Shown here: positions 40,036-40,980 of the stretch, piece by piece
How the letters are laid out: each line of letters begins with the position of its first letter
Numbering within the stretch: the first letter of the stretch is position 1
Assembly (NCBI GenBank): GCA_965637545.1
Contig: OZ281495.1
Location: forward strand, 3,720,001-3,784,000
Direction of reading: 5' to 3'
DNA from: Phallusia mammillata
Taxonomy: Eukaryota
DNA length: 64,000 nt
The notes under the pieces: generated by a model
Databases searched by the model: none
The model's input: the letters and a program-made list of their open reading frames with translations, nothing else
What the model was told of the DNA's origin: nothing
Position numbers and translations under genes: made by a program

Positions 40036-40980
40036 AGAAGACAGCTGTCAGACATCTTATACTTTCAATGCCAATCTACTCAAATAACGGCGTTACTGGC
40101 GGGGTCCAGTGCACACATTTCCCCAAGCCAGATATTATCCTACTTGAAGGGGAAACCGACAGCAGCGATGACGCACGGCGACATGCTCTTAGAAACCGCT
40201 TGTACCACATCAAAAATGCGTTTGTTGCGAAGTCTGCGAATAAAGAATAGCAATTACTTTGCTACAAGGCCTCTTTTCGTAAAAGTTCATACTGGCCAGG
40301 TGAACAACGATGAAAAGACCTACCAACTTTATGACCAGAGTAATGTTTTCCCAGACCTAGTTTACAAGGAAACATTTCGGCCCAACCGAATGTTCACTTT
40401 CAAAGTTCATAATACTTATTACTTATTCGTCAATTATACTCTTGCAAGAGTCGAAACCAATATCCAGCTACTTTCTCCTATTATCAAGATGATAAATGAA
40501 TCTTTTCAATCTTATGATTTCGTTGAAGCGGCCCAGCTTCTCAAATATATACCTAGTGAAAATCGCGCGTTATCGGACGTTCTAGACGTCCTCTCAAGCA
40601 CTCAACTAAACAACGAACGAATGAATTTCTTCTTCGATTCACAAACTAACCTTTCCACAGAAGGGGGAATTGATGACAAGGTTCTGCCGCAAAATCTTCT
40701 CAAGTCAGCTTTCATCACCCTTTTATCTTCTGTGACCAGTCCTGCTGCAAATGCATTCCTCTCCTTCCTCGTTATCCAAGCTTTGTTCTGGGGAATAGCC
40801 TTGTCCCTGTTGACATTAAAGCATCTTTTTCAACGTATTCAACCAATAGCAAGACCAAAAATCAACCAGGCAGTTGCAGAATTACAACGCCGCTGGAATT
40901 TACGTCATCAACAACAAAACAACGATGACGACACGAATGGACAGTTTCAGGAAGCGATTAACACAGAACCAGAAGCCTGA
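40036..40980 (+). CDS. env: Env-like class III viral fusion glycoprotein, herpesvirus gB-like C-terminal half
   Basis: Open frame from 40036: ...[50 protein letters not shown]...RSLRI...ATRPLF...GQVNND...[17 protein letters not shown]. Then a hydrophobic membrane-proximal/TM segment ([22 protein letters not shown]) and a charged tail. Motif order parallels gB domains III-V (recalled from memory, not searched). Two stops at 40027-40035 separate it from the upstream ORF in the same frame. Confidence 0.7.
   Translation, partial: [314 protein letters not shown]

What the first reader, a model, noticed from the sequence alone, without database searches (positions are those of the whole stretch)
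40036..40980. Herpesvirus gB-like (class III) fusion protein gene inside an LTR retroelement
Seen: a 315-codon open frame ending in a TM segment and tail, inside a TSD-flanked LTR element. Its motifs follow, in order, those I recall for HSV-1 gB. [50 protein letters not shown] parallels [61 protein letters not shown] parallels NSMRI..YSRPLV. GQVNND parallels GQLGENN, and [16 protein letters not shown] parallels YFTFGGGYVYFEEY. Established: gB-like env genes are rare in LTR elements (known from the nematode Tas element; chuvirus-type class III glycoproteins occur in some arthropod elements). Inference: this may be an undescribed env-bearing retroelement lineage that captured a gB-like fusogen.
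Basis: partly seen in the sequence, partly recalled or inferred. Interest (0 to 1): 0.9.

Follow-up and report, generated by a model that had tools for sequence, protein, structure and literature searches.

The report
Truncated envelope gene in sea-squirt retrotransposon
This is the leftover back half of a herpes-like membrane-fusion gene inside a parasitic jumping element of what is probably a sea squirt; intact relatives sit elsewhere in the genome and belong to an already described group of envelope-carrying retrotransposons, though they also carry an unexplained extra gene.

Summary
The gB similarity is real: Pfam Glycoprotein_B E=1.3e-9, and the 16 best PDB sequence hits are herpesvirus gB. 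But the frame is only the C-terminal half of an env. It has no signal peptide, no fusion domain and in-frame stops just upstream. It lies in a 4.5-kb non-autonomous LTR element (755-nt LTRs, 4-bp TSD) with no gag or pol.

The genome holds six near-identical intact parents (gag-pol plus a 632-codon class III env) and about 18 truncated copies, most with one shared junction. The parents fit the HSV/gB-type 'errantiviruses' of Chary & Hayashi (PMC13524379), who list nine ascidian elements, so the lineage is not undescribed. The remnant's synonymous excess is best explained by recombination with intact env; 5 of 16 copies are broken.

Not found in my searches: (1) a 269-codon gene under purifying selection that starts inside the parent's LTR and ends at the env splice donor; (2) genomic copies of the spliced env RNA; (3) a ten-intron antisense RNA with no long frame; (4) LTR pairs that differ in their last 55 nt in 20 of 25 non-autonomous copies. 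Verdict: a variant of a known kind, of moderate interest.

The parts
38181..38184 (.). 5' target-site duplication CACG
38185..38939 (+). 5' LTR, 755 nt, TG..CA. First ~440 nt shared with the intact family (U3, inferred); the rest is typical of the non-autonomous family
38943..38950 (+). primer-binding-site-like TGGTGCCC, 3 nt after the LTR; tRNA not identified. Two relic LTR-end/PBS-like motifs follow at 39009 and 39048
39055..39291 (+). diverged remnant of the end of the parent family's LTR/leader gene (ORF0; 38% identity), then its stop codon and the splice-donor-like GTAAGT (39286-39291)
39780..40035 (+). about 45-nt tandem repeats and the fixed junction sequence, with in-frame stops, that replace the front half of env
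   Evidence: period read from the sequence, no repeat finder run
40036..40980 (+). C-terminal half of a gB-type (class III) env: residues 319-632 of the intact env, 96% identical; end of core helix, crown region, TM and tail
40063..40233 (-). position of an antisense exon seen in contigs laid on the intact relative; its splice sites are present in this copy (placed by homology)
40651..40808 (-). position of a second antisense exon (placed by homology)
40981..41924 (+). 3' non-coding region of the parent family (89% identical), ending in the polypurine tract at about 41911-41919
41925..42679 (+). 3' LTR; differs from the 5' LTR at 1 position in the first 700 nt and at 16 alignment positions in the last 55
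42680..42683 (.). 3' target-site duplication CACG

Best explanation
The frame is a passenger remnant: the C-terminal half of the env of an env-carrying Ty3/gypsy retrotransposon (HSV/gB-type errantivirus), carried in a non-autonomous LTR element. SHOWN: six intact parents exist, each with LTR, ORF0, a gag-pol frame and a signal-peptide-bearing class III env. A larger non-autonomous family has its own leader and tandem repeats. A subset of that family, including the window copy, carries the parent's env C-half and 3' region after one shared junction, and some gag-pol copies carry the same junction and so lack the env front half. INFERRED: the non-autonomous RNA is packaged and reverse-transcribed by the parent's Gag and Pol, and template switching between co-packaged RNAs made the junction and keeps refreshing the remnant with sequence from intact env. 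That would keep the frame open and rich in synonymous differences without a protein being needed. INFERRED from fold and from the family literature: the intact env, not this remnant, is made from a spliced RNA and acts as a trimeric class III fusogen for cell-to-cell spread.
For: Env front half is found at 6 places only. The exact junction pattern is found at 15 places and the reversed control at 0. The window frame begins at residue 318 of the folded env, while the confident model part that matches gB's fusion and PH domains is 63-289. There is no signal peptide, and Met45 and Met50 are absent from the 4 other truncated copies. In 4 of 4 measurable gag-pol copies the signal-peptide frame stops and is out of frame with the remnant (2 of 6 not measurable). 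Five of 16 truncated copies are broken by 6 frameshifts and 2 stops, none shared. 630 of 1830 site pairs fail the four-gamete test, and 5 of 16 copies have 216-436-nt runs identical to the intact lineage. Two elements have one parent-type and one non-autonomous-type LTR (L048; L031/L032). Twenty of 25 resolved non-autonomous copies have discordant LTR ends. More than 20 fetched non-autonomous copies have no env piece at all.
Against: Pairwise pN/pS among truncated copies is 0.18. Shared variants are 43 synonymous to 21 non-synonymous (P=6e-12 against neutrality), and even private variants lean synonymous (18 S, 25 N, P=0.03). Twelve of 18 truncated copies keep the frame open. The second intact env haplotype that the recombination reading needs is not in this assembly: all 6 intact copies are 99-100% alike. 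Translation of the remnant was not measured.
Confidence: 0.8

Rival explanations
1. The env C-half is kept as a protein in its own right, from an internal Met or an unseen splice. It would act as a membrane-anchored dominant-negative or regulator of the intact trimer, used by the non-autonomous element against its helper.
For: pN/pS 0.18 among truncated copies and 12 of 18 frames open. The leader keeps a splice donor. TM and tail are intact.
Against: No signal peptide, no conserved start near the 5' end, and stops directly upstream. Five of 16 copies are broken, with stops about as frequent as neutrality predicts (2 seen, about 1.9 expected). Mosaic exchange with intact env explains the synonymous excess. 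Most non-autonomous copies lack the segment.
Confidence: 0.08
2. The segment is kept for its RNA: it holds the first exons of a spliced antisense transcript (or cis signals for export or packaging), so copies that carry it make anti-env RNA.
For: The antisense joint inside this segment has about 3-5 times the contig depth of the upstream antisense joints in two runs (85.9 vs 21-32; 337 vs 72-133; depth is a weak measure). The splice sites are present in the window copy.
Against: Donor-like words are simply commoner on the antisense strand (16 vs 5). One donor is altered in 5 of 5 diverged copies, with its GT lost in one, and the alignable sites are mostly not kept in a distant family. Higher depth also follows from higher copy number. 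This rival does not explain selection on codons.
Confidence: 0.09
3. A recent, independent capture of a herpesvirus gB fragment by an LTR element.
For: Best Pfam, PDB sequence and PDB fold hits are herpesvirus gB.
Against: The fragment is 96% identical to a resident retroelement env. The genome holds several further env groups at 24-40% identity, most next to pol. Structural identity to gB is only 10-14%, and negative-strand RNA virus glycoproteins rank as high or higher. The group is described as ancient (PMC13524379).
Confidence: 0.02

Closest known systems
HSV/gB-type 'errantiviruses' (env-carrying Ty3/gypsy), Chary & Hayashi, eLife 2026, PMC13524379; nine Ascidiacea elements, all ENV_HSV
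   Same: LTR-gag-pol-env order, RT-RNaseH-integrase pol, gB-like ectodomain between signal peptide and TM, several near-identical intact copies, ascidian host (inferred).
   Different: The window copy itself has no gag, no pol and no env front half, so it fails their inclusion rule. The family is not among their ascidian rows (Ascidia, Aplidium, Clavelina). Their main text has no hit for 'splic', 'non-autonomous' or 'accessory'. The parent carries an extra conserved gene in its LTR.
Drosophila insect endogenous retroviruses (Senti et al., bioRxiv 10.1101/2023.08.03.551782; passages read)
   Same: Env comes from a spliced subgenomic RNA with the donor upstream of or in gag.
   Different: Those have an F-type env spliced to a short peptide, an AU dinucleotide or a Gag peptide. 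Here the first exon holds a complete 269-codon gene whose stop codon is the last exon triplet, and env has its own signal peptide.
Non-autonomous LTR derivatives (LARD/TRIM type) and env-less descendants such as mouse IAP from IAPE (recalled; IAP is cited in PMC13524379's Discussion)
   Same: LTRs, PBS and PPT kept, coding capacity lost, mobilised in trans; env loss within a family.
   Different: Here the non-autonomous element exchanges modules with its helper in both directions, and the helper loses the env front half through a shared junction.
Class III fusogens: herpesvirus gB, rhabdovirus G, thogotovirus GP/baculovirus gp64, chuvirus-type glycoproteins (also in mosquito BEL-Pao elements, PMC7642597; search listing and start of abstract only)
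   Same: The intact env's model matches gB (VIA Z 10.4, 348 aligned, rmsd 23.8; Z 9.7, 207 aligned, rmsd 6.7), Chandipura G (8.3) and thogotovirus GP (6.8-7.0).
   Different: Identity is 10-14%, and no single viral family is clearly the nearest. The window remnant lacks the fusion domain.

Membership tests
HSV/gB-type errantivirus (window copy) | Flanked by LTRs with TSD, PBS, PPT | tested here: met
HSV/gB-type errantivirus (window copy) | gag and full RT/integrase in continuous frames | tested here: not met
   no such frame between the LTRs; filed as a derivative, not a member
HSV/gB-type errantivirus (window copy) | env without large truncation, with signal peptide or first TM | tested here: not met
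   frame starts at residue 319 of 632; no N-terminal hydrophobic segment
HSV/gB-type errantivirus (parent family in G000) | LTR-gag-pol-env, uninterrupted, several copies over 98% alike | tested here: met
   6 copies at 99-100%, one with small deletions in gag/pol; 1642-codon gag-pol frame and 777-codon env frame read in L021, L023 and L006
HSV/gB-type errantivirus (parent family in G000) | Ty3/gypsy pol domain order (RT, RNase H, integrase) | tested here: met
   Pfam RVT_1 674-830, RT_RNaseH 899-1029, Integrase_H2C2 1117-1170, rve 1187-1281; gag DUF7041; protease not hit by Pfam
HSV/gB-type errantivirus (parent family in G000) | Classified as Ty3/gypsy by GyDB profiles or placed in the published pol tree | not testable with these tools
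   no GyDB library; nearest RT/RNaseH relatives are 44-48% identical and mostly unnamed, one named Gypsy-like
HSV/gB-type errantivirus (parent family in G000) | Tunicate-type 'C3' cysteine-bridge pattern | not tested
   pattern is defined in a figure that is not held; 17 Cys listed
Class III fusogen (intact env) | Elongated beta fusion domain with PH-like domain | tested here: met
   model residues 63-289 (pLDDT mostly 65-90) align to gB and rhabdovirus G; Rhabdo_glycop_FD weak in 5 of 16 relatives
Class III fusogen (intact env) | Long core helix, crown domain, C-terminal TM | tested here: met
   helix 301-342 in the model at low confidence; PF00606 in 16 of 16 relatives at E<=0.1; profile search E 5.5e-7
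Class III fusogen (intact env) | Trimer and membrane-fusion activity | not tested
   no complex predicted, no assay
Pfam PF00606 Glycoprotein_B | Score at or above gathering cut-off 43 | tested here: not met
   38.4 bits (window frame) and 37.1 bits (intact env); homology is still significant

The most novel reading that the evidence does not exclude
This is a helper-satellite system among env-carrying retrotransposons. A non-autonomous element swaps modules with its helper, turns helper copies env-defective, and keeps the env C-half because it is useful, as anti-env antisense RNA or as a truncated interfering subunit. The helper in turn carries a new kind of LTR-encoded accessory gene on a two-gene spliced RNA with env. 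The accessory gene itself is well supported; a function for the remnant is not.
Probability: 0.15. Interest if true: 0.7.

Novelty: new variant of a known kind. Interest (0 to 1): 0.4.

Why it matters
The headline claim is already in print. The value is in the parent family. If the host is the ascidian Phallusia mammillata (inferred), a laboratory embryology animal carries young, intact gB-type env retrotransposons whose entry mechanism the describing paper calls unknown. The genome records env loss in progress, gives the splice junction of the env RNA, and holds a conserved accessory gene with no real homologue in a 1.84-billion-protein library; its one public record is labelled as a host zinc-finger protein. 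The discordant LTR ends give a natural read-out of strand transfer between co-packaged RNAs, and they warn against dating such insertions by whole-LTR divergence.

Tried and rejected
Word-index protein search with the intact env: no hit among 8000 candidates scored; not evidence of absence.

ORF0: no Pfam family. ESM Atlas best score 0.76, a lead only. phmmer over 1.84 billion representatives gave itself plus one repetitive protein judged spurious. The single-sequence AlphaFold model had pLDDT 37, so no fold search was run. The public label 'zinc finger protein 26' is not supported by Pfam.

Antisense RNA as a protein gene: rejected. The longest stop-free stretch is 105 codons against a null mean of 92 (24% of 2000 random exon sets reach it). 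The exon set is incomplete at both ends, and 6 of 10 joints have unknown letters between.

A purposeful array of primer-binding sites: rejected. L070 shows an LTR end extended over an old PBS, so these look like relic LTR ends; a paper search found nothing.

Read-through from ORF0 into env: the two are in frame across one TAA in the parent's spliced junction. In the distant family the donor lies 1 nt further on, and the open upstream extension may follow from the acidic pol tail, so this is left open.

Env remnants in env-less non-autonomous copies: none in 12 segments tested.

No RNA holder listed as such. Earlier-findings look-ups were empty. tRNA identity of the PBS was not determined. Whole-model TM-scores to gB are low (about 0.2; model pTM 0.33), so domain arrangement is not resolved.

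Full report
OBSERVATION. The frame at 40036-40980 (+) is real: 314 codons plus stop, against a maximum of 190 in 40 simulated windows. It has one hydrophobic segment at 237-262. Pfam Glycoprotein_B matches residues 4-188 at E=1.3e-9 (38.4 bits, under the cut-off of 43), and the 16 best of 19 PDB sequence hits are herpesvirus gB. The frame lies in a 4.5-kb element with 755-nt LTRs (38185-38939, 41925-42679), a 4-bp TSD, a PBS-like motif and a polypurine tract. There is no gag or pol between the LTRs.

WHAT IT IS. A search of the own genome gave 77 matches. Eighteen cover the whole query at 95-100% identity: 6 in frames of 763-777 codons and 12 in frames of 314-316. Six further close copies are split or partial. 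The 6 long ones are intact elements with 1.19-kb LTRs, a 1642-codon gag-pol frame (RT, RNase H, H2C2 integrase, rve, gag DUF7041) and an env of 632 codons from the signal-peptide Met (my env queries began one residue after that Met). The env front half occurs at these 6 places only. An AlphaFold model of the intact env, built on 16 natural relatives from this genome (mean pLDDT 57, pTM 0.33), matches herpesvirus gB in the PDB (Foldseek E 7e-16, TM about 0.2). VIA-align gave Z 10.4 (348 aligned, rmsd 23.8) for HSV-1 gB, 9.7 (207, rmsd 6.7) for HCMV gB, 8.3 for Chandipura G and 6.8-7.0 for thogotovirus GP. In the viral library and the ESM Atlas, glycoproteins of negative-strand RNA viruses rank as high as gB or higher. 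The protein is therefore class III, without a demonstrated herpesvirus origin. The well-modelled part that matches gB's fusion and PH domains (63-289) is exactly what the window frame lacks; it starts at model residue 318.

Modular mapping of 66 fetched loci shows three groups: intact parents; gag-pol copies in which the signal peptide runs into about 45-nt tandem repeats and then the env C-half; and a non-autonomous family (47 matches among 40 of 228 candidates scored) with its own leader and the same repeats. Most non-autonomous copies have no env; about 11, including the window copy, carry the C-half. One junction sequence precedes the C-half at 15 places, with stops in the env frame. The host is probably the ascidian Phallusia mammillata, because a protein of the parent element is identical to a record so labelled (inference).

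IS THE REMNANT A GENE? Probably not. It has no signal peptide and no conserved start near its 5' end. In 4 of 4 measurable gag-pol copies the signal-peptide frame stops and is out of frame with it. Of 16 truncated copies (18 less a tandem twin and a partial copy), 5 are broken by 6 frameshifts and 2 stops, none shared. Against this, pairwise pN/pS is 0.18, shared variants are 43 S to 21 N, and private ones are 18 S to 25 N (P=0.03). The copies are mosaics, however: 630 of 1830 site pairs fail the four-gamete test, and 5 of 16 have 216-436-nt runs identical to the intact lineage. The simplest reading is repeated recombination with functional env alleles. The second intact haplotype that this needs is not in this assembly, which leaves the point open.

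MECHANISM (inferred). The non-autonomous RNA is co-packaged with and copied by the parent's machinery. Two elements have one LTR of each type. In 20 of 25 resolved non-autonomous copies (32 given, 7 unresolved) the two LTRs differ in the last 55 nt, while 0 of 7 parent-type pairs do. This fits strand transfer between two different RNAs with a short U5 (model from general knowledge; one paper search found nothing specific). Outside that end the window's LTRs differ at 1 of 700 positions, so the insertion is young. For the intact env, five genomic copies carry a precise GT-AG junction that removes gag-pol, and a joint from the same donor appears in run X2. Env is therefore most likely made from a spliced RNA, as in Drosophila elements (bioRxiv 10.1101/2023.08.03.551782, passages read).

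UNEXPECTED FEATURES OF THE PARENT. First, a 269-codon gene (ORF0) starts inside the LTR, crosses the PBS and ends with its stop codon at the splice donor. It is open in all 12 full-length 5' copies found, shows dN/dS 0.14-0.30 in 9 diverged comparisons (two near-identical pairs gave 0.29 and 1.15 on 2 and 5 changes), and has a 27%-identical homologue in the same position in a distant family. No family or fold could be assigned. How gag and env are translated behind it is unknown. Second, contigs of runs guessed to be RNA, from three studies, show ten GT-AG introns on the minus strand across the element (X1 9 of 10, X2 9 of 10, X6 2 of 10), and none in X13. Strand is inferred from intron ends. 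The spliced form has no long frame and its sites are not strictly conserved, so it is read as a non-coding antisense RNA using cryptic sites. Two of its exons fall inside the window frame by homology.

COMPARISON WITH WHAT IS KNOWN. For Chary & Hayashi (PMC13524379) I read the abstract, section 5 part 1, section 6, section 8, section 9 part 1 and section 14, and made term searches in the supplements. They describe gB-type env in intact Ty3/gypsy elements across animals and list nine ascidian elements, all gB-type. Phallusia mammillata appears only in their table of screened genomes (2 pol and 7 env hits, no annotation). The parent family meets their architectural criteria where testable; the window copy fails them and is a derivative. 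Nine paper searches listed nothing on this family, on an LTR-encoded gene in gB-type elements or on such an antisense RNA. I read listings and abstract starts only, subscription papers are mostly not covered, and figures and bioRxiv supplements could not be seen. Genes in or near LTRs are recalled from some retroviruses and plant elements (no call).

VERDICT. Observation confirmed; interpretation partly supported. The frame is a truncated passenger (confidence 0.8) from a new member of a described group. Its LTR-encoded gene, satellite family and antisense RNA make it a variant worth moderate attention. Interest 0.4.

Noticed in passing
L021:2156-2965 (G000:C4); homologue L087:964-1839: ORF0: a 269-codon gene starting inside the LTR, crossing the PBS and ending at the splice donor. 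dN/dS is 0.14-0.30 in 9 diverged comparisons and indels are in multiples of 3. A 27%-identical homologue lies at the same place in a distant family. Identical to CAB3267959.1, labelled zinc finger protein 26 of Phallusia mammillata.
   Followed up: partly
L021:1854-9959: Ten CT..AC-bounded joints (GT-AG introns on the minus strand) across the intact element: 9 of 10 in run X1, 9 of 10 in X2, 2 of 10 in X6, 0 of 10 in X13. No long frame.
   Followed up: partly
L036 (G000:C2:18419000-18428900); L028, L079, L080, L081: Genomic copies carrying the exact GT-AG splice junction that removes gag-pol, i.e. retro-copies of, or recombinants with, the subgenomic env RNA.
   Followed up: yes
window 38885-38939 vs 42625-42679, and 24 other copies: The two LTRs of one insertion differ in their last 55 nt in 20 of 25 resolved non-autonomous copies; 12 of the 20 have at most 2 differences elsewhere. 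0 of 7 parent-type pairs show this. The terminal 10 nt are highly variable across the family.
   Followed up: partly
L083-L104: Several further gB-type env groups in this genome at 24-40% identity, many with open frames of 600-680 codons next to pol.
   Followed up: partly
window 48511-54113: An unrelated, frameshifted Gypsy-type element: gag with CCHC knuckle, protease, RT, RNase H; direct repeats 84% alike at 48511-49118 and 53498-54113.
   Followed up: no
window 31877-32800 (-), 56795-58027 (-), 20436-21338 (-), 54781-55560 (-): Two long single-exon kinase frames (79% alike in DNA) and two TPR-containing frames; looks like a tandem gene cluster.
   Followed up: no
window 1-2031 vs 35590-37620; 4648-9483 vs 10811-15676: Segmental duplications at 99% and about 95% identity.
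   Followed up: no
window 27934-28518 (+): Isolated integrase-core fragment (rve, E=1.7e-4).
   Followed up: no
L031:2907-5640: A 2.7-kb insertion interrupts gag in one env-defective copy.
   Followed up: no
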